From IMG/VR virus record IMGVR_UViG_3300030333_002322: 64,000 bases of DNA. One strand, 5' to 3'. This stretch comes from a virus. The translations under genes and the position numbers were made by a program. Under the pieces are notes generated by a model. The model made no database searches. It saw nothing but the letters and a program-made list of their open reading frames with translations, and was not told the origin of the DNA. Of the stretch, positions 6,973 to 23,400 are shown piece after piece (the first letter of the stretch is position 1; every line of letters starts with the position of its first letter).

Positions 6973-7934
6973 TCACCTTGTAGAGCACCCCTGGCATAGT
7001 CAGTAGCTCTATTTTCAAAAAAGTTTGTATGAGTAGGAGCATTAATCATCTCTTCTACCCACAGTAAAGGATTTCTTTTTACTTTAAAGATACCCTTCAT
7101 TCCCATACTTATAAGTCTTCTATCAGCTATATATCTGATATATTTTTTAACCTCGTCTGCTTCTAAACCTTCCATAGGTCCCATAGCAAAACAAGTGTCA
7201 ATAAATTTTTCTTCTAGTTCGACCATCTTCTCTGCGATGTCGTATATATCTTTCTTTAACTTGTCTTTCCACAAGTGTCTGTTCTCTCTTATGTATTGTT
7301 TAAATAATTGTATCATAGATTCTGCGTGCATTGTTTCATCTACAATAGACCAAGTAATAATTTGTCCCATGCCTTTCATCTTGCCATGACGAGGAAAGTT
7401 TAGTAACATAATAAAAGAACTAAATAACTGCATGCCTTCTGTAAATGCTGAGAACGCTGCAATATTAGCTGCTACTGATTCCTCTGTTCCATTTGCACCT
7501 GCAAGTTTCATAAAGTATTCATGTTTTTCTACCATTGTTTGATACTCTAAGAACTCACTATATGTAGACTCAGGCATACCTAAAGTCTCTATTAAATGTG
7601 CATATGCAGCAACATGCAATGCCTCTCTAGCAGCAAATCCTGATAACATCATACGAACTTCTGGTTGTGGGAAATAAGGTAGGTAATTGTTTACATAACC
7701 ACCTGCTACATCTATATCTCCCTGCACAAAAAATCTAAATATATTAGTTAAAAATGCTTTCTCTGGATCATTTAATTTCTCTTTCCAATCCTTTACGTCT
7801 TCTACCATTGGTACTTCTGTATGTAACCAATGTGATTGTTCATGTTTTAACCACGCATCATATGCCCATGGGTAACTGAACGGTTTAAAATAATCTCTTT
7901 CTTCTGTTAATCTCGGTTTCCTTGGTCTTGCCAT
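6951..7934 (-). CDS. nrdB: Ribonucleotide reductase class I beta subunit
   Basis: Di-iron ligands in EALH, FTEG and DETMH; C-terminal HTNFFENRATDY. Confidence 0.97.
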   Translation of the reverse strand: MARPRKPRLTEERDYFKPFSYPWAYDAWLKHEQSHWLHTEVPMVEDVKDWKEKLNDPEKAFLTNIFRFFVQGDIDVAGGYVNNYLPYFPQPEVRMMLSGFAAREALHVAAYAHLIETLGMPESTYSEFLEYQTMVEKHEYFMKLAGANGTEESVAANIAAFSAFTEGMQLFSSFIMLLNFPRHGKMKGMGQIITWSIVDETMHAESMIQLFKQYIRENRHLWKDKLKKDIYDIAEKMVELEEKFIDTCFAMGPMEGLEADEVKKYIRYIADRRLISMGMKGIFKVKRNPLLWVEEMINAPTHTNFFENRATDYARGALQGEWQEVWA

Positions 7935-17398: not shown

Positions 17399-18895
17399 CT
17401 ATCTTTTTTTTTGAGGGAGACCTTGTGGTGCTGATGTTTTACCCATAACATCTACCATTTTGCCTGTTTTCTTATCTCTTTTTTGACCTACTCTTACAGT
17501 AGTTTCTTTTCTTTTTGTTCTATTAAAAGAATTGGATTCAGGATCTCTAGCAAAATATCTTGAAGCTAAGGCTTCAACTATTCTTATTTGTTCTTCTTTC
17601 ATAGTATTTTTTCTAACTACTTCTTTTCCGCCAGGTCCAATGTCTGTTACTTTAACTCCAATTTTTTTCTTTGGATTAAGTTTTATCTTAAGTGTTTTAA
17701 GTTTGTCTTCACCTTTAAAATGAACTACAGGCTTCTTTCCTTCTTTAATGCCACCTTTTAGTGGAGCATCTAATTTAGATCTTGCTCTTGCTAAACCCTT
17801 ACGTCGTTTACCTGTAGACTTACTTAATGATTTACCTACGCTAGCAGGTGCTCCTTGTTTGTCTGCTAATTGTGAAGCTCTTTCTTTAGTGTCAATATCT
17901 CTAATAGACTTATGAATATATCTTGTCTTAAGATGATCTGATATTTCATTTAAATCTGGAAATGCCTCTTTTGCTACAACACCATAAGTAGTTTTCTTTT
18001 TTCTTATTTGTTTGGCAGTATCAGATGCTTGGAACTTTTTTACTTCCTTATCTATTGTTTTCTTAACATCTCCTAAAACACCTTCGCCTAATTTGTCTAT
18101 GGCTCTTTTCATTCCTTTTTGTCTATTTTTTTCTTTATTAGGGTTATCTGAAAAACCGCCTTTTTGAACTGTGCCTGAACTTTGGGCTATATGATCTCTA
18201 TGTGTATCTGGTTTGTCTTTTAAATTCTTTTTAATATACTTACCAGCTGTTGTTTTGTCGCCACCTAATTTCTTAATAGCTCGTTTAATACCTTTTTCTG
18301 AGGCTTTAACTCTAGTACCTGTATATTTTCTATCGTCTTTCGGAAATCCACCTTGGACAGCGTCTCTATGTTCCCTAGATTTATCTGTAAATGAACCATG
18401 TTGTCTACTATGAGGATCTGTTGTTTTATGTAAGTAGCTTTTAAGTGTGGATTTTTTCAATTCTTTTAATTCCTCTTCTTTTCTATATAAAGCTTTCGCC
18501 TTCCCATCTTTGTCTGGAAAACGATAAGCAGAAGGTTCTTTTTTCTTTTTGTGTTTACCTGTTGGTGCTTTTTCCTCTTCTGTTCGTAAGCGAGTAGATA
18601 ATGAAGCAGGATTATAACCCTTAGCCTGTTTTAAATTTTTGTCTGCAATCTCTTTATTGGCTTTCTTTTTCTTTGCTAGGAATTCATCTCTTTCAGCTTT
18701 TGTATAAGGTCTAGGCCAGTTGTCATGTCTTGTTTCGTTGAACTTCTTCTTAACATACCCAGGCATCTTCATGAAGCCAGTATCTAATGCCTTCTTATTT
18801 TCTGCTGCTCTTTTCTTAAGTAAGTTACTTGATACAGGTTTCTTAATTGGCCTACCTGATGCTAAGTCTTCTTTAAATTGTTCGAACGATTTCAT
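17399..18895 (-). CDS. Lys-rich probable internal head protein with a capsid-targeting-like N-terminus
   Basis: Starts MKSFEQFKE (compare the T4 IP targeting sequence MKTYQEFIAE); repeated xxE-delimited basic modules. Confidence 0.6.
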   Translation of the reverse strand: MKSFEQFKEDLASGRPIKKPVSSNLLKKRAAENKKALDTGFMKMPGYVKKKFNETRHDNWPRPYTKAERDEFLAKKKKANKEIADKNLKQAKGYNPASLSTRLRTEEEKAPTGKHKKKKEPSAYRFPDKDGKAKALYRKEEELKELKKSTLKSYLHKTTDPHSRQHGSFTDKSREHRDAVQGGFPKDDRKYTGTRVKASEKGIKRAIKKLGGDKTTAGKYIKKNLKDKPDTHRDHIAQSSGTVQKGGFSDNPNKEKNRQKGMKRAIDKLGEGVLGDVKKTIDKEVKKFQASDTAKQIRKKKTTYGVVAKEAFPDLNEISDHLKTRYIHKSIRDIDTKERASQLADKQGAPASVGKSLSKSTGKRRKGLARARSKLDAPLKGGIKEGKKPVVHFKGEDKLKTLKIKLNPKKKIGVKVTDIGPGGKEVVRKNTMKEEQIRIVEALASRYFARDPESNSFNRTKRKETTVRVGQKRDKKTGKMVDVMGKTSAPQGLPQKKR

Positions 18896-19269
18896 TATTC
18901 CTTCTCTACGCCAATTTGTGCTTTATACTCGTTATTTATACTTTTTTCATAATAGACAATGATAGTTTTTTGCTGATCTATATATCTTTTTAGTTCTGAC
19001 ATATTTAGGGATAAATTCTCATAATCAGGTACAGAAATTGCAAAAAATACAAAATCTCCGTACTCTTTCTCAAATTTTGTTTTAAATTCTTCAAAATTTT
19101 CTGCTGTTACTGCATAAAAATTAACAGGATATAATGTTACACCCTTAGGGTGACCCTGTATAGGTATGGATCTTTCTACAAATTTTGTTTGAACTTGTAC
19201 TTCTTTGGGTAATAAACTACACCCGCTAATTATCAGCGGTAGTAGAAGTATCAGCTTCCAATTCTTCAA
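18895..19269 (-). CDS. Lipoprotein, probable o-spanin (Rz1-like)
   Basis: Signal peptide with lipobox LILLLPLIISGC; overlaps the 3' end of the upstream TM/coiled-coil gene; likely TTG start at 19269. Confidence 0.65.
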   Translation of the reverse strand: MKNWKLILLLPLIISGCSLLPKEVQVQTKFVERSIPIQGHPKGVTLYPVNFYAVTAENFEEFKTKFEKEYGDFVFFAISVPDYENLSLNMSELKRYIDQQKTIIVYYEKSINNEYKAQIGVEKE

Positions 19270-19600
19270 ATATCTTCTTTGTTGCACTATTCACTCTCCG
19301 TTCAATTAACCCTGGCTTCTTTAGAGTTAACATTGTTAAATCATGTTTTCTTAACTTCTTAGCAAGTTCATCTCCATATGCCTCTGATGCTTTTAGTTTT
19401 GTATTAAGTTCACTTATTGCTGCTTGTGATGCTTCATTGCTTGCTTTAAGTTGATCTATTGTATCCTGATTTGTTTTGGCTGCAATAGATAATTTAGCAT
19501 TATTTTCTGTTAGTATTGTTAGTCGTTTTTCAGTCAACCAATAGTATGTACCAAAGGCAAGTACCATTGCGACTATAATACCCATTAAAATCTTACTCAT
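19226..19600 (-). CDS. Probable i-spanin (Rz-like)
   Basis: N-terminal TM helix followed by a coiled coil; overlaps the lipoprotein gene. Confidence 0.65.
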   Translation of the reverse strand: MSKILMGIIVAMVLAFGTYYWLTEKRLTILTENNAKLSIAAKTNQDTIDQLKASNEASQAAISELNTKLKASEAYGDELAKKLRKHDLTMLTLKKPGLIERRVNSATKKIFEELEADTSTTADN

Positions 19601-19868
19601 CTAATAAATAAACCTTTTTCCAATCTTCGTAGCCATCTAGTTTAGCTTCGATTTTGTCTATTCTTTTTGCTAACATTGGATAGTCTGCTCTCCATTTAGC
19701 TTCTTTCTTGGCAAGTTCTATATTATATCTGTTTGCCAAAAACTCCATTAAACTATTTACTTTTCTTTGGAACCAACCACCAACCTTTGTATTAAGAAAC
19801 CACTTACTAAATGCGTTTCCAAATACTGCCGTTACACATGCTATGGCCAATCTAGTTAATATTAACAT
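19593..19868 (-). CDS. Small membrane-associated protein
   Basis: Hydrophobic N-terminus; adjacent to the spanin pair. Confidence 0.5.
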   Translation of the reverse strand: MLILTRLAIACVTAVFGNAFSKWFLNTKVGGWFQRKVNSLMEFLANRYNIELAKKEAKWRADYPMLAKRIDKIEAKLDGYEDWKKVYLLDE

Positions 19869-20485
19869 TGTTCTGTTAAGAATGTTTTAAAATCTAACAT
19901 TCCCCTTTCCTCTTTTTGCAAGTTCATTCCTTGCCTTGTTGCTTTATATAATTTCCTGGCATGTTCATCACTATGATTTGCATGGAGTCCTGCCTTAAAT
20001 GATTTATAATCATTAGAACTAGCATGAGCTCTCATCTTTGTTCCACTTATACCTGCTACACCCTCAGCATCAGGATCTCTCTGTCCTGCTGATAATATAT
20101 GTATTTTTTTATAATTATATTCTTTTCCATTATACTTTTTAGCAAGAGCTTTAAACTGTTTTACTCTATCACTACCTACAACCATTGTTGCGTGTGTATG
20201 TCCTTCTTGATTAAACTTTTTAAGTTGTGCTAAAAAATGTGGGTGTTCTTTTGTAGAATGTTCAAAGTTAACTTCAGGATGAATATGTCTTAAATATTCT
20301 TTCTTATGTTCATGATGTAAAGGATCTGTTTTATTATTCTGTGAATGACTAACAATAACTGCGTGATTAGCACCTATTTTTTGTGCATGTGAATGAACTT
20401 TATCCACAACCTTACTATGTCCAGCAGTAGGTGGATTCATTCTTCCGTATGAAAATACTATATGTTTTTCTTGTTCGTCTGCCAT
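19862..20485 (-). CDS. HIGH-family nucleotidyltransferase (phage cytidyltransferase), His-rich
   Basis: FSYGRMNPPTAGH, VVGSDR and ISGTKMR motifs. Confidence 0.8.
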   Translation of the reverse strand: MADEQEKHIVFSYGRMNPPTAGHSKVVDKVHSHAQKIGANHAVIVSHSQNNKTDPLHHEHKKEYLRHIHPEVNFEHSTKEHPHFLAQLKKFNQEGHTHATMVVGSDRVKQFKALAKKYNGKEYNYKKIHILSAGQRDPDAEGVAGISGTKMRAHASSNDYKSFKAGLHANHSDEHARKLYKATRQGMNLQKEERGMLDFKTFLTEQC

Positions 20486-20489
20486 TTAA

Positions 20490-20540
20490 TTATCCGCAAC
20501 AAGTGCAAGAACAGCATTCACAACATTTACATTTACTCAT
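20490..20540 (-). CDS. 16-aa Cys-rich micropeptide MSKCKCCECCSCTCCG
   Basis: AGGAG SD 6 nt upstream; the ATGA start overlaps the upstream stop; fills the intergenic gap exactly; 8 of 16 residues are Cys. Confidence 0.7.
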   Translation of the reverse strand: MSKCKCCECCSCTCCG

Positions 20541-21715
20541 GTCTTTCTCCTCGCGTCGTTTTTATTAAAGTTAAGAGCACTAAACTCTTTCCTATCTACA
20601 AATTTAGAAGGTCTGCCATTTCGTATTGCTACAAAACCTTCTGGTTTAACTTTTTGTCCGTCTACTTCATGTCCCCATTGTGATTTCTGAGACATTGTTT
20701 TAGTAAGGATATCCTTTGCTGCTTGAAGGTGTCTGTGCATGTGCATAGGTCCTTCAAAGTGTTCCTTATTCTTATTTATATGTCCTACGGTGTCATCATG
20801 TGTTTTTTGATGCCTAGCTTTTGCTGCTGGTGTAGATACTCCGTCTATTTTCTTTTGTAGTCTGGTACTTACATGTTTAGCAAAACCTTCATGAGAATAC
20901 TGTTCGCCTGTTCTAACCGTGTGGTTAATATATGTCTTCTTAGCGTCTGCATGTTTTAGAACAGTATCGTGGTGCTCATCTGGTGTATTTTTAAAATGTG
21001 CTACTGCTTGTTTTAGATGATGATCTACCTTAGCCCTATCCTCTAAAGAGTATCTATGAGTACTCATATCGTGATTGGCTGACATCATATGTACGTCTTT
21101 ATGCTTTTTAAAGTTGTTATGATCTATAGCACCATGAGTTGCTTTTAAAGTATCTATTGTCTTACCTTCGTACTTTGTATGTACTGCTAATCCTAATTGT
21201 GCATTAGCAGCTGCCTTGCCGTGTTCTGAATCATGTGGTGCGTGATATGTAATCAACTGTGGTGTAAACTCTACTCTATTACCTTTCTTTTTAACATCTC
21301 CAGGACCGTGCATAATGTCTGCTTGATATACACCATCAGGCTCTATTTTATGTGCGTGATCTAATGCTGCTTTTAATTTGGATACAAGTCCAGGAGCATG
21401 GCCATGATTAGCATCTATGTCTTCGTGTGTATGATTAATCTTAGGATTTTTATTAAATGCTGATTTTGATGCTACAAAAAACTTGCCATTCTCTGGGTGT
21501 TTCCCAAATACAACAGCAGGACTACCATCATATTTTATTGTGGTATCTGTTTGTCCTTGTCCTTTACCTTGTAAATGATTATGAACATCATTTATAGTAT
21601 GAAACGCATGTCCAAAACCTTCTTTACCAGCATGCAGAACATGATCTTCCACATGCTCAAGATGTTTGAGCTTGTCTTCTTCTGCCTGTTCTCTTAAAAA
21701 TTCTCTGAACTTCAT
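20537..21715 (-). CDS. DUF6267-like protein with ligase-type nucleotidyltransferase motifs, His-rich
   Basis: KHLEHVED, TIKYDGSPAVVFG (KxDG), PEGFV, KFVDRKEFS; N-terminal MKFREFLRE. Confidence 0.65.
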   Translation of the reverse strand: MKFREFLREQAEEDKLKHLEHVEDHVLHAGKEGFGHAFHTINDVHNHLQGKGQGQTDTTIKYDGSPAVVFGKHPENGKFFVASKSAFNKNPKINHTHEDIDANHGHAPGLVSKLKAALDHAHKIEPDGVYQADIMHGPGDVKKKGNRVEFTPQLITYHAPHDSEHGKAAANAQLGLAVHTKYEGKTIDTLKATHGAIDHNNFKKHKDVHMMSANHDMSTHRYSLEDRAKVDHHLKQAVAHFKNTPDEHHDTVLKHADAKKTYINHTVRTGEQYSHEGFAKHVSTRLQKKIDGVSTPAAKARHQKTHDDTVGHINKNKEHFEGPMHMHRHLQAAKDILTKTMSQKSQWGHEVDGQKVKPEGFVAIRNGRPSKFVDRKEFSALNFNKNDARRKT

Positions 21716-21720
21716 ATCCG

Positions 21721-21728
21721 TATTTATA
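21721..21728 (-). promoter_or_regulatory. T4 late promoter, probably leaderless
   Basis: TATAAATA lies 5 nt upstream of ATG 21715. Confidence 0.7.
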
Positions 21729-22479
21729 ATAAACGGATAAACGGAAAGTCTAATTTTGTTTTCTTAGTTCCTGTTAACTTATCCATTTCCTCGTAGGTTA
21801 ATGGAGTTATGTAAACATAATTTTTTAACTTTTCATCATATCCGATATATTCCGTCCTCTCTAATCCTGGTATTACTCTACCATGTTTACCTTGTTCTGT
21901 GTTTTCAACTCTACAACCAGACTCTCTAACATTTGTTATAGCATGTAATCTTTTTAAGAACTCTCGATCACCATAATGATATCCTGTAAAAGATTCATCG
22001 TAACCACCTGCTTCCCAGAAGGTTTCTTTATCTATTACAAAGCAGTTCATATGTCCAGTTGATTTCCCCTCGAACTGTTGATTATATCTTTGATAATTTT
22101 GAAAAGTATAAACTGAGCCTTTATTAAACTTTCTTCTCTTCAATGCTGCTACATCAGGCGGATACATTAAAACATCAGAATCAAAAAATGCTATCCAATC
22201 TGTTGTAGCATATTTTGCTATAAGGTTTCTACAACCATGTGAATTGAACCCTAAGTCTCTAGATACTTTCCATACCTGTATAGTAGGTCCATGCTCAGTT
22301 AAATTTAATTCTTGATTTATAATATCTATTGCAGGGTAATCAGGCGAACCATCATCTACTAAAAATATATCAACACCACTAGGCCATTTTTCCCAGAGAC
22401 GACATAACTCTATAAGCCTAGCAGGCTCGTTATAGTAAGTATAACCTGCAGTGAACCTAAGTTGTTTCATCCGAGACAT
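21724..22479 (-). CDS. GT-A glycosyltransferase (GT2/GT7-like)
   Basis: LVDDGS, FFDSD (DxD) and GGYDESFTGYHYGDREF. Confidence 0.8.
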   Translation of the reverse strand: MSRMKQLRFTAGYTYYNEPARLIELCRLWEKWPSGVDIFLVDDGSPDYPAIDIINQELNLTEHGPTIQVWKVSRDLGFNSHGCRNLIAKYATTDWIAFFDSDVLMYPPDVAALKRRKFNKGSVYTFQNYQRYNQQFEGKSTGHMNCFVIDKETFWEAGGYDESFTGYHYGDREFLKRLHAITNVRESGCRVENTEQGKHGRVIPGLERTEYIGYDEKLKNYVYITPLTYEEMDKLTGTKKTKLDFPFIRLL

Positions 22480-22810
22480 CCACCTTTGTGAGGTCTACAG
22501 CAGGAAAGTCTATAGCTCCTCCAGTATTCAATTGAAACTGCTCGTTATGAGTTAAATTATCTTTAAAATAAACTTCATAACCAGTAAATATCTCAACAAC
22601 ATCTGAGGTGATTTGTCCTTCCAACATGTGCATAAACTCGTTCACATGTTTGTTTATTTCCTGTAAGGTTAAACCACCCTCAGGGTCATCTATATGAGCT
22701 ATTACATACTCATTACTAGGACCTGGTCTCCACATAGGGAATTCTTTATCAACCCCATGTGCTCTCCAGACTTTAGTGCACGCTACGATTTTTAATTTCT
22801 GCGACATCAT
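22457..22810 (-). CDS. Hypothetical protein
   Basis: ORF tightly packed in the operon. Confidence 0.5.
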   Translation of the reverse strand: MMSQKLKIVACTKVWRAHGVDKEFPMWRPGPSNEYVIAHIDDPEGGLTLQEINKHVNEFMHMLEGQITSDVVEIFTGYEVYFKDNLTHNEQFQLNTGGAIDFPAVDLTKVDVSDETT

Positions 22811-22973
22811 ACATCTCTATATTGTTTCTTACATCATTTATATCTATATTGTTTTTTGTTGCAAGAGTATTGGCCGTCTGATGCCAATATGCCTTGAACT
22901 CTCCATGTAAGGCTCTTCGTTCTGCTTTAACACAATTAACTATCCTTTGGATTTCTTTGTTTTTCATTTTCAC
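22773..22973 (-). CDS. Hypothetical protein
   Basis: Short ORF overlapping its neighbours. Confidence 0.45.
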   Translation of the reverse strand: MKMKNKEIQRIVNCVKAERRALHGEFKAYWHQTANTLATKNNIDINDVRNNIEMYDVAEIKNRSVH

Positions 22974-23400
22974 TCCTCGCTGTGCGTTTTCTGAGATCAG
23001 TACTACTGAAAGAATGATCTCGTTTATTATAGATTATTTCAATCTTCCTTTTATAGCAAATTCTTTTTGCTGTAAATTCTATGTCCTTATATTCTTCACC
23101 CAATATCCTAACATTAATAGGTAAGGTTAAAAATATATCTTCTAATTCTTTTTCTGTATTATAGACGACTATCTCATCTACATTTTTATTTGATGCTAAT
23201 TGAATTTGTCGTTCAACGACACTTTGTACTGGAGGATTCTTTTCTTTTCTGTCTTGAGTTGGATCGACTTGCAGAGCTGCTATCAGGTAATCACAATGTC
23301 TTTTGGCCTCTTCTAGCATAACACAATGTCCTGCGTGAAGGAGGTCAAAAGTACTGCAGGTTATTCCAATGCGTCCGCAATTTTTGTAATCTAACCTCAT
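22936..23400 (-). CDS. Glycerol-3-phosphate cytidylyltransferase-like (TagD/RfaE family)
   Basis: TCSTFDLLHAGH, SVVERQIQL and RDHSFSSTDLR. Confidence 0.85.
   Translation of the reverse strand: MRLDYKNCGRIGITCSTFDLLHAGHCVMLEEAKRHCDYLIAALQVDPTQDRKEKNPPVQSVVERQIQLASNKNVDEIVVYNTEKELEDIFLTLPINVRILGEEYKDIEFTAKRICYKRKIEIIYNKRDHSFSSTDLRKRTARSENEKQRNPKDS

What the first reader, a model, noticed from the sequence alone, without database searches (positions are those of the whole stretch)
19862..21728. Late three-gene module: His-rich ligase-like protein, Cys micropeptide and His-rich HIGH nucleotidyltransferase, with capsid-targeting-like tags
Seen: by my hand count, about 43/392 and 21/207 residues are His (10-11%, versus ~2% typical). 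The first protein has KxDG and EGxV motifs of covalent nucleotidyltransferases (ligase/capping fold) and starts MKFREFLRE. The second ends with MLDFKTFLTE. Known: T4 internal proteins use MKTYQEFIAE-type tags for encapsidation. Inference: this is a virion-packaged, injected enzyme pair, possibly for RNA repair or NAD/nucleotide counter-defence. The His and Cys enrichment may carry metal inside the capsid or give pH-dependent DNA binding.
Basis: partly seen in the sequence, partly recalled or inferred. Interest (0 to 1): 0.8.

Follow-up and report, generated by a model that had tools for sequence, protein, structure and literature searches.

The report
Capsid-tagged, histidine-rich phage enzyme pair
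A marine T4-like phage encodes an RNA-ligase-like enzyme and an NAD/CoA-type adenylyltransferase that carry the short tag phage T4 uses to load proteins into its head, so they are probably injected with the DNA; both are about 10% histidine for reasons still unknown.

Summary
On the minus strand lie a 392-aa protein (20537-21715; 43 His, 11.0%), a 16-aa ORF with 8 Cys (20490-20540) and a 207-aa protein (19862-20485; 21 His, 10.1%). The window mean for His is 2.5% (SD 1.7%).

Protein B is a HIGH-motif adenylyltransferase with a NadD/NMNAT/PPAT fold.

A and B are fused in 23 of 150 family representatives and in S-PM2.

A's N-terminus, MKFREFLRE, matches the functional positions of the T4 capsid-targeting sequence. 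The same tag sits on unrelated small basic proteins and on a head-cluster protein of a related phage. Tagged B homologs were found by mass spectrometry in virions of two cyanophages.

The best reading is that these are packaged, injected enzymes. Their role is unknown.

The micropeptide is real but is a separate, mobile small gene. The His excess is shared across the clade, is not clustered and remains unexplained.

This scan has noted the same module before on other DNA.

The parts
21721..21728 (-). TATAAATA, a box like the T4 late promoter. It ends 5 nt before A's ATG and overlaps the stop codon of the upstream glycosyltransferase gene.
   Evidence: TATAAATAC followed by 4-5 nt and ATG is present in 22 of the 78 related loci with an upstream stretch, all of which carry the window clade's upstream context. 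All 13 boxes in the window lie on the coding strand.
21689..21715 (-). N-terminal tag MKFREFLRE of protein A. It resembles the T4 capsid-targeting sequence and ends in an L-x-E site of the kind the prohead protease cleaves.
   Evidence: The tag lies outside the Pfam domain, which begins at residue 17. Residues 1-9 have pLDDT below 50. In 181 tagged family sequences the consensus is F-[KTR]-x-[FY]-[LI]-x-E. T4 ipII and ipIII start MKTYQEFIAE. In T4, targeting depends on residues 4 and 7 and processing on residues 8 and 10 (PMC9026906).
20537..21715 (-). Protein A, 392 aa, DUF6267. A divergent RNA-ligase-like covalent nucleotidyltransferase with a helical insertion of about 120 aa (residues about 224-341). 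11% His.
20490..20540 (-). Micropeptide gene MSKCKCCECCSCTCCG, 16 aa with 8 Cys, metallothionein-like in composition.
   Evidence: It is conserved with amino-acid variation and has its own Shine-Dalgarno sequence in different contexts. The family CKCC[KE]CC.CTCC occurs in 27 viral contigs, 11 of them directly upstream of B.
19862..20485 (-). Protein B, 207 aa. A HIGH-motif (TAGH ... ISGTKMR) adenylyltransferase with a NadD/NMNAT/PPAT-like fold. 10% His. This is the short form.
   Evidence: PF01467, 25.9 bits against a cut-off of 21. phrog_3041 cytidyltransferase, E = 7.7e-60. AF2 pLDDT 92.2. Foldseek: NadD 8aih E = 6.7e-6, PPAT 1o6b E = 1.8e-5.
19865..19900 (-). C-terminal tag-like peptide MLDFKTFLTEQC of protein B. 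It corresponds to the internal tag that, in the long form of B, precedes a DUF6321 basic domain.
   Evidence: In other clades, free-standing DUF6321 proteins start MIGFKEFITE or MKSFKEFLEE. No DUF6321 domain is found in this window.

Best explanation
A and B are a functionally coupled pair of nucleotidyl-transfer enzymes. They are made late in infection, recruited to the prohead scaffold by a T4-type capsid-targeting peptide, freed by the gp21-type prohead protease after the L-x-E site, kept in the DNA-filled head and ejected into the next host.

A is a divergent RNA-ligase-like enzyme. By inference, Lys61 of KYDG is adenylylated and the AMP is passed to a 5' phosphate.

B is an NMNAT/NadD/PPAT-like adenylyltransferase. 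By inference it joins ATP and a phosphorylated small molecule to give an AMP-linked product and pyrophosphate.

What is shown: the motifs, the folds, the recurrent A-B fusions, the portability and conservation of the tag, and a gp21 homolog plus a tagged head-cluster protein in a close relative.

What comes from the literature: tagged B homologs are present in purified cyanophage virions.

What is inferred: that this phage packages A and B, that the tag is cleaved, what the substrates are, and that the role is an early one such as RNA-end repair or nucleotide-cofactor supply against host defences.

The 10-11% His is a trait of the clade with no established cause. The Cys micropeptide is an independent mobile gene that happens to sit between A and B here.
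For: Tag:
- A starts MKFREFLRE, and the motif is kept across DUF6267 down to about 30% identity.
- It matches T4 MKTYQEFIAE and MKTFKEF... at the functional positions.
- It is disordered and lies outside the domain.
- The same tag heads other, dissimilar proteins in related loci: DUF6321 basic proteins, 198-243-aa CW.GYK proteins that end in a DUF6321 domain, 328-331-aa proteins and short 79-88-aa proteins. It also heads a 97-aa protein that lies between the portal gene and gp21 in relative G002. G002 encodes the gp21 protease, PF03420, E = 1.6e-41.
- In G002 the strict tag occurs at the N-terminus of A only, and internally in B and one other ORF.

Virion evidence:
- S-SZBM1_140 starts MRFRQFIIE and S-SCSM1 ORF91 starts MKSFLQFLKE. 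Both are B homologs, and both were detected in virions by mass spectrometry (PMC9146016, PMC9602691). A cytidylyltransferase was also detected in S-CREM2 virions (PMC10665884).
- The untagged A homolog S-SZBM1_141 does not appear in the parts of that virion table read here.

Folds.

Coupling: 23 of 150 representatives are A-B fusions, plus S-PM2.

Late expression: a conserved TATAAATAC box.
Against: - No virion data exist for this phage or its clade.
- B's tag is C-terminal here, and T4 experiments tested only N-terminal tags.
- The S-PM2 A-B fusion has no tag and is annotated only as hypothetical, while neighbouring genes are labelled virion structural.
- The genes sit in the replication and nucleotide-metabolism region, next to a glycosyltransferase, not among head genes.
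- Substrates are unknown.
Confidence: 0.62

Rival explanations
1. A and B are ordinary cytoplasmic enzymes and are not packaged. They could serve nucleotide-sugar, cell-envelope or cofactor metabolism together with the neighbouring glycosyltransferase and the second cytidylyltransferase. Under this reading the N-terminal motif is a folding, regulatory or interaction helix, and the virion detections of homologs are carry-over of abundant proteins.
For: - A GT2 glycosyltransferase lies directly upstream in the relatives of the window's clade whose gene order was read (L006, L014, L019, L042), and an RfaE-II/TagD-like enzyme lies at 22936-23400.
- The region is otherwise replication and nucleotide metabolism.
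- The authors of the proteomics papers themselves raise contamination as a possibility (PMC10665884, PMC9602691).
- The S-PM2 and HTVC008M A homologs lack the tag.
Against: - The motif is portable across unrelated proteins, including small basic ones and a head-cluster protein.
- It matches the experimentally mapped T4 positions.
- In S-SZBM1 the tagged protein is the one listed in the virion proteome; its untagged neighbour did not appear in the parts of the table read.
- In S-SCSM1 five consecutive genes at this position are virion proteins.
Confidence: 0.2
2. The module is a metal-handling system. The His-rich enzymes and the Cys micropeptide bind and carry Zn, Ni, Cu or Fe, into the capsid or within the infected cell. 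Metal loading is the selected function of the His excess.
For: - A and B have about five times the normal His content in both enzymes, and this holds across clades.
- The micropeptide has metallothionein-like composition.
- Metal genes recur nearby in relatives: NfuA-like between A and the micropeptide, Dps/ferritin next to the tagged DUF6321 gene, and the micropeptide directly upstream of a gene whose N-terminus resembles the IscU-like ORF of G002 (L103; by eye, not scanned).
Against: - His residues are no more clustered than in shuffled sequences.
- They replace hydrophobic and aromatic residues rather than forming sites.
- The micropeptide is absent from many relatives with equally His-rich A and B and occurs in unrelated contexts.
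- No metal-binding domain was detected.
Confidence: 0.12
3. The His excess adapts the proteins to life inside the capsid. Replacing hydrophobic residues with titratable His, together with Lys, would give marginally stable basic proteins. Such proteins could sit among packed DNA and unfold to pass through the portal and tail.
For: - His-rich members have fewer I, L, F, Y and W residues and a higher net positive charge: +11.6 against +7.3.
- Both proteins are also about 12% Lys, like the T4 internal proteins.
- An 88-aa tagged protein with 14% His exists in relative L044.
Against: - Tag presence and His content are uncorrelated across 77 family representatives (p = 0.6).
- The tagged C48C1 and S-SCSM1 homologs have only 0.7-1.5% His.
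- AF2 predicts a well-packed fold.
Confidence: 0.15

Closest known systems
T4 internal proteins IPI, IPII, IPIII and the packaged enzyme Alt, which are encapsidated through a capsid-targeting sequence (CTS)
   Same: An N-terminal peptide of about 10 aa has an aromatic residue at position 4, Phe at 7, Leu or Ile at 8 and Glu at 10, ending in the gp21 cleavage motif L/I-x-E. The tag is found on diverse, otherwise unrelated, mostly basic proteins. The phage lineage encodes a gp21 homolog. As with Alt, an enzyme is the cargo.
   Different: The cargo here is a ligase-like enzyme plus a HIGH adenylyltransferase. One tag is C-terminal or internal. The proteins are 10-11% His. The genes lie in the replication region. 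Packaging and cleavage have not been shown for this phage.
ATP-dependent RNA ligases: Rnl5 (Naegleria NgrRnl), Rnl2 (T4 Rnl2, trypanosome REL1), Trl1-LIG and T4 Rnl1
   Different: There is no detectable sequence or profile similarity. A helical domain of about 120 aa is inserted between the early and late motifs. None of the N- or C-terminal domains that define Rnl1 to Rnl5 is present. Activity is untested.
NadD/NMNAT and PPAT (CoaD) adenylyltransferases, including the 'cytidylyltransferase/NMNAT-like' proteins reported in cyanophage virion proteomes
   Same: B passes the PF01467 cut-off and has TxGH and ISxTxxR motifs. Foldseek gives E of about 1e-5 and probability 1.0. B is 36-42% identical to the virion-detected S-SCSM1 ORF91 and S-SZBM1_140.
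   Different: No equivalog model matches, so the substrate is undetermined. B is His-rich, its tag is at the C-terminus, and the DUF6321 domain of the common long form is missing.
Metallothioneins (comparison for the micropeptide only)
   Same: 50% Cys in C-x-C and CC motifs, no aromatic residues, and very small size.
   Different: At 16 aa it is shorter than the metallothioneins I recall (my own knowledge; not checked here). No homology has been shown, metal binding is untested, and it behaves as a mobile phage gene.

Membership tests
T4-type capsid-targeted (CTS) internal proteins | N-terminal decapeptide with an aromatic residue at position 4, Phe at 7, Leu or Ile at 8 and Glu at 10 | tested here: met
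   A starts MKFREFLRE, with the same spacing but one residue shorter. Most homologs have the 10-residue form, for example MTTFKDFLSE and MKTFVEFITE. The T4 sequences were read, and the functional positions come from PMC9026906.
T4-type capsid-targeted (CTS) internal proteins | The phage encodes a gp21-type prohead protease and a scaffold core | tested here: inconclusive
   The window holds no head genes. Relative G002, whose A is 83% identical, has PF03420 at E = 1.6e-41 within a portal, gp21, gp22, gp23 cluster. The window's own genome is not held.
T4-type capsid-targeted (CTS) internal proteins | The tag is portable: the same tag heads unrelated cargo proteins | tested here: met
   Apart from A, the tag heads DUF6321 proteins, longer CW.GYK proteins ending in DUF6321, 328-331-aa proteins and short 79-88-aa proteins. 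It also heads B homologs in cyanophages and a head-cluster protein.
T4-type capsid-targeted (CTS) internal proteins | The protein is physically present in the head, with the tag cleaved off | not testable with these tools
   The only evidence is published mass spectrometry of tagged B homologs in S-SZBM1 and S-SCSM1 virions (PMC9146016, PMC9602691). Cleavage was not examined in those studies.
Covalent nucleotidyltransferases (ATP-dependent RNA and DNA ligases) | Adenylyltransferase-domain fold | tested here: met
Covalent nucleotidyltransferases (ATP-dependent RNA and DNA ligases) | Motif I KxDG with the catalytic lysine, plus motifs IV (EGxV) and V (a basic pair) | tested here: met
   K61, D63 and G64, then E359, G360 and V362, then K371 and R375 are each at least 90% conserved in 81 sequences. 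Motifs III and IIIa were not assigned. Residue-level superposition on a ligase lysine was not available.
Covalent nucleotidyltransferases (ATP-dependent RNA and DNA ligases) | Sequence or profile similarity to a ligase family | tested here: not met
   Pfam gives DUF6267 only. No PDB hit was found by sequence or by profile. hhalign against T4 Rnl2 gave probability 0.2. NCBIfam gave nothing.
Covalent nucleotidyltransferases (ATP-dependent RNA and DNA ligases) | Self-nucleotidylation and strand joining | not testable with these tools
   A biochemical assay is needed.
HIGH-motif nucleotidyltransferases (PF01467; NadD/NMNAT/PPAT) | Pfam match above the cut-off, with (H/T)xGH and ISxTxxR motifs | tested here: met
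   25.9 bits against a cut-off of 21. The motifs T20-A-G-H23 and I-S147-G-T-K-M-R152 are present, with the key residues at least 90% conserved.
HIGH-motif nucleotidyltransferases (PF01467; NadD/NMNAT/PPAT) | Rossmann-like fold of the family | tested here: met
   AF2 pLDDT 92.2. 98 PDB matches at E <= 1e-3; those listed are NadD/NMNAT, PPAT and a few FAD synthetases, at probability 1.00.
HIGH-motif nucleotidyltransferases (PF01467; NadD/NMNAT/PPAT) | Defined substrate (NMN, NaMN, phosphopantetheine or other) | tested here: inconclusive
   No NCBIfam equivalog matched. Only the generic domain TIGR00125 was found, and it scored below its cut-off. NadD and PPAT structures score equally well.
Metallothionein (micropeptide) | High Cys content in C-x-C and CC motifs, and metal-thiolate clusters | tested here: inconclusive
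   The composition fits, with 8 Cys in 16 residues. Metal binding and homology cannot be tested here.

The most novel reading that the evidence does not exclude
A widespread clade of uncultured marine T4-like phages uses the T4 capsid-targeting system to load its heads with a coupled RNA-ligase-like and NMNAT-like enzyme pair and inject them. The pair would act in the first seconds of infection against host RNA-cleaving or NAD-depleting defences. The extreme His content of both enzymes would be a selected adaptation for capsid residence or metal carriage in the trace-metal-poor ocean.
Probability: 0.12. Interest if true: 0.8.

Novelty: new variant of a known kind. Interest (0 to 1): 0.6.

Why it matters
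If A and B are packaged and injected, the T4 internal-protein system, so far studied almost only in coliphages, would extend to abundant ocean phages. It would also show that the system can carry a two-enzyme nucleic-acid or cofactor toolkit, not only small anti-restriction proteins and Alt.

It would give a mechanism, an N-terminal targeting tag, for repeated but unexplained reports of 'cytidylyltransferase/NMNAT-like' proteins in cyanophage virions.

It assigns a ligase-like fold to DUF6267, a family with about 2,000 representatives at 50% identity.

It also flags two compositional oddities that can be tested: the 10% His enzymes and a mobile 8-Cys micropeptide family.

Tried and rejected
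- Clustering of His into HxH, HxxH or similar motifs was tested by shuffling and rejected for A. For B there is only a marginal HxH excess, p = 0.036.
- A link between tag presence and His content was tested and rejected (p = 0.6).
- I looked for the DUF6321 domain elsewhere in the window with tblastn and found only the tag remnant.
- TATAAATA is not enriched in the window overall: 13 observed against 11.2 expected. Only its strand, its position and its conservation upstream of A are informative.
- The sigma-70 promoter scan was at chance level.
- Fusion partners of A other than B gave little: one Pol-beta-type nucleotidyltransferase and one LysM domain. These do not settle function.
- The window's own genome is not held, and the nearest held record is a 22-kb fragment without the genes.
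Full report
**What is there**

All genes in the window run on the minus strand.
- Protein A is encoded at 20537-21715 (392 aa).
- A 16-codon ORF, MSKCKCCECCSCTCCG, lies at 20490-20540. Its ATG overlaps A's TGA stop, and GAGGAG lies 6 nt upstream.
- Protein B is encoded at 19862-20485 (207 aa).

His counts are 43 of 392 for A and 21 of 207 for B. These are the two highest of 82 ORFs in the window (mean 2.5%, SD 1.7%). The peptide has 8 Cys.

**Context**

The window is the replication and nucleotide-metabolism arm of a marine T4-like myovirus. It holds the gp43 polymerase, gp41 helicase, primase, NrdA and gp46. The nearest named relatives are Kyanoviridae cyanophages and Pelagibacter phage HTVC008M.

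Directly upstream of A lies a GT2 glycosyltransferase, and further upstream an RfaE-II/TagD-like cytidylyltransferase. Downstream of B come a small membrane protein, an Rz/Rz1-like spanin pair and a 498-aa protein with 20% Lys.

The order DNA polymerase ... gp41, MazG ... A, B ... primase, NrdA is the same in S-SZBM1; S-SCSM1 keeps this order around its B homolog, but I found no A homolog among the ORFs I compared there.

**Protein A**

A is DUF6267 (PF19782, E = 3.5e-93). The family has about 1,957 representatives at 50% identity with E <= 1e-3. The searchable literature holds no paper that names DUF6267.

An AlphaFold2 model built on 81 diverse sequences is confident (pLDDT 95.2, pTM 0.92). 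Only residues 1-9 are disordered.

Sequence methods see no known family, and Foldseek finds nothing significant.

|---|---|---|
| NgrRnl 5cot | 8.9 | 184 |
| REL1 | 8.3 | 195 |
| Trl1-LIG | 8.2 | 207 |
| T4 Rnl2 | 7.6 | 178 |
| T4 Rnl1 | 7.4 | 169 |

K61-x-D63-G64 sits between two strands. E359-G-x-V362 and K371...R375 are each at least 90% conserved.

A six-helix insertion of about 120 aa (residues 224-341) separates the early and late motifs. I did not see this arrangement in the matched ligases.

**Protein B**

B passes the Pfam cut-off for CTP_transf_like. It carries T-A-G-H and I-S-G-T-K-M-R motifs, whose key residues are conserved.

Its model (pLDDT 92.2) matches NadD/NMNAT and PPAT structures about equally well (E of about 1e-5, probability 1.0). 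The substrate is open.

**Coupling of A and B**

In S-PM2 the two domains form one 591-aa protein. 23 of 150 family representatives are A-B fusions, and one has the order B...A. BFVD lists several more. A and B are also adjacent in the His-rich sister clade. This argues that the two act together.

**The tags**

Tags of A's type occur at the N-terminus of DUF6267 proteins down to about 30% identity. In 181 tagged sequences the core is F-[KTR]-x-[FY]-[LI]-x-E.

T4 ipII and ipIII begin MKTYQEFIAE, and ipI begins MKTFKEFTS...ITE. In T4 the first 10 residues are enough for encapsidation. Residues 4 and 7 govern targeting, residues 8 and 10 govern processing, and gp21 cuts after L/I-x-E (PMC9026906). 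The marine tags match at exactly those positions.

The tag is portable. In the fetched loci it heads several kinds of protein:
- free-standing DUF6321 basic proteins of about 97 aa;
- 198-243-aa proteins with a CW.GYK motif that end in a DUF6321 domain;
- 328-331-aa proteins;
- an 88-aa protein with 14% His;
- a 79-aa Lys-rich protein.

In the 170-kb relative G002, a 97-aa protein that lies between the portal gene and the gp21 homolog starts MAKTFKNFRAGIITE. In that whole genome the strict tag occurs at an N-terminus only in A; it occurs internally in B and in one other ORF.

**B's C-terminal MLDFKTFLTEQC**

The commonest form of B is 285-288 aa. It consists of the enzyme, then GMLDFxxFLxE, then a DUF6321 basic domain. 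In other clades, DUF6321 is a separate gene that starts with the tag.

So the internal tag of long B looks like the N-terminal tag of a gene that became fused to B. The window carries a short form that stops just after the tag. No DUF6321 domain is found elsewhere in the window.

Whether a C-terminal tag works is unknown. Two facts bear on it. S-SCSM1 ORF93, a virion protein, ends ...TFKEFLEYIE. T4 Alt is processed at both ends (PMC9026906).

**Published virion data**

- S-SZBM1_140, a cytidylyltransferase, was detected in purified virions (PMC9146016). I found that it starts MRFRQFIIE and is 42% identical to B. Its untagged DUF6267 neighbour, S-SZBM1_141, does not appear in the parts of that virion table that I read.
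- S-SCSM1 ORF91, annotated NMNAT, is a virion protein (PMC9602691). It starts MKSFLQFLKE and is 36% identical to B. It sits in a run of five virion proteins.
- S-CREM2 virions also contain a cytidylyltransferase (PMC10665884).

Those authors could not exclude contamination, and none mentions a targeting sequence. The one held paper that contains both 'capsid targeting sequence' and 'cyanophage' is the T4 head-assembly review, which concerns T4.

**Late expression**

TATAAATA ends 5 nt before A's ATG. TATAAATAC followed by 4-5 nt and ATG occurs in 22 of the 78 related loci examined. All 22 carry the window clade's upstream context, and the codons upstream of the box differ among them. All 13 boxes in the window are on the coding strand, and most lie just upstream of gene starts. 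No Shine-Dalgarno sequence fits in the gap, so a leaderless or coupled start is possible. That is untested.

**The His excess**

The excess is shared across the clade: 10-13% in the window's clade and 7-9% in a sister clade. B is also about 11% His there. Across the family the range is 1.3-14%. The cyanophage and HTVC008M homologs have 1-1.5%.

The His residues are not clustered. In His-poor homologs the same columns hold mainly Y, F, W, L and I. His-rich members are depleted in hydrophobic residues and are more basic. Tag presence does not predict His content. I could not explain the excess. Metal carriage and capsid adaptation remain weak hypotheses.

**The micropeptide**

It is a real gene. 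Variants such as MQSKCKCCKCCTCTCCG, MTKCNCCKCCSCTCCG and MCKCESCKCDPCTCSN each keep a Shine-Dalgarno sequence in different surroundings.

It is not part of a fixed module, for three reasons:
- It is absent from relatives with equally His-rich A and B, including L003, whose A is 99% identical.
- In L016 and L017 a Lys-rich 36-aa ORF takes its place.
- A pattern scan found the family in 27 viral contigs. 11 of these are directly upstream of B. The others precede unrelated genes, one of which begins like the IscU-like ORF of G002.

In four relatives an NfuA-like gene precedes it.

**Verdict**

The fold assignments and the capsid-targeting reading are supported. The three-gene unit and the metal idea are not established.

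The thing is a new variant of the T4 internal-protein system with an enzyme-pair cargo. This scan had already noted it on other genomes, and a follow-up there reached a similar reading. I re-derived each point here independently.

Noticed in passing
window 18895-19868 (-): A lysis cassette lies directly after B. It holds a 91-aa membrane protein (19593-19868, holin-like by position only), an Rz-like i-spanin (19226-19600, phrog_739, E = 1.5e-13) and an overlapping lipobox o-spanin (18895-19287, phrog_812, E = 8.3e-16).
   Followed up: partly
window 17399-18895 (-): A 498-aa protein with 20% Lys and no family match starts MKSFEQFKED. It is tag-like at positions 4 and 7 but has no L-x-E site, and it has Asp at position 10; in T4, Asp there blocks processing but not targeting. 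A TATAAATA box lies 38 nt upstream. It is a candidate uncleaved internal DNA-binding protein. The virion-detected S-SZBM1_139 sits at the same position but is not detectably similar.
   Followed up: partly
window 21716-21728 (-); L003-L022: The conserved late-promoter box TATAAATAC lies only 4-5 nt before A's ATG, with no room for a Shine-Dalgarno sequence. This suggests a leaderless late mRNA, or re-initiation after the upstream TAA stop that lies inside the box.
   Followed up: partly
L004, L011, L013, L014 (about 7158-7793): Some close relatives carry an NfuA-like Fe-S carrier gene (Fe-S_biosyn plus NifU domains) inserted between A and the micropeptide.
   Followed up: partly
L030 10691-11436; L076 10926-11653: In the sister clade, a free-standing tagged DUF6321 basic protein (MIGFKEFITE..., about 97 aa) is followed directly by a Dps/ferritin-like gene (PF00210, E = 4e-19).
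   Followed up: partly
L092 5078-5371 (G002 85078-85371): A 97-aa protein lying between the portal gene and the gp21 protease starts MAKTFKNFRAGIITE, much like the T4 IPI propeptide. The gp21 homolog itself starts MRLIKEFNESINYLTE.
   Followed up: partly
L044 (88-aa ORF): Another tagged, His-rich small protein (MKSFKNYIAE..., 14% His) occurs in a related contig.
   Followed up: no
L030 5390-5995; L076 5390-5995: In the sister clade, the gene overlapping A's start encodes a 201-aa protein with an FDIDETLF motif, which resembles the DxDxT motif of HAD phosphatases. It has no Pfam hit. If it is a phosphatase, it would fit an RNA-end-healing role beside a ligase.
   Followed up: partly
window 21724-23400 (-): A GT2 glycosyltransferase (21724-22479) and a second, ordinary RfaE-II/TagD-like cytidylyltransferase (22936-23400, 2-3% His) lie just upstream. 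The GT2 gene also sits directly upstream of A in the four relatives of the window's clade that I checked (L006, L014, L019, L042).
   Followed up: partly
L102-L124 (several): The 13-17-aa CKCC[KE]CC.CTCC micropeptide also sits upstream of unrelated genes. Two of those genes have tag-like starts (MRNFKEFRED, MISFRDFQEG), and one begins like the IscU-like ORF of G002.
   Followed up: partly
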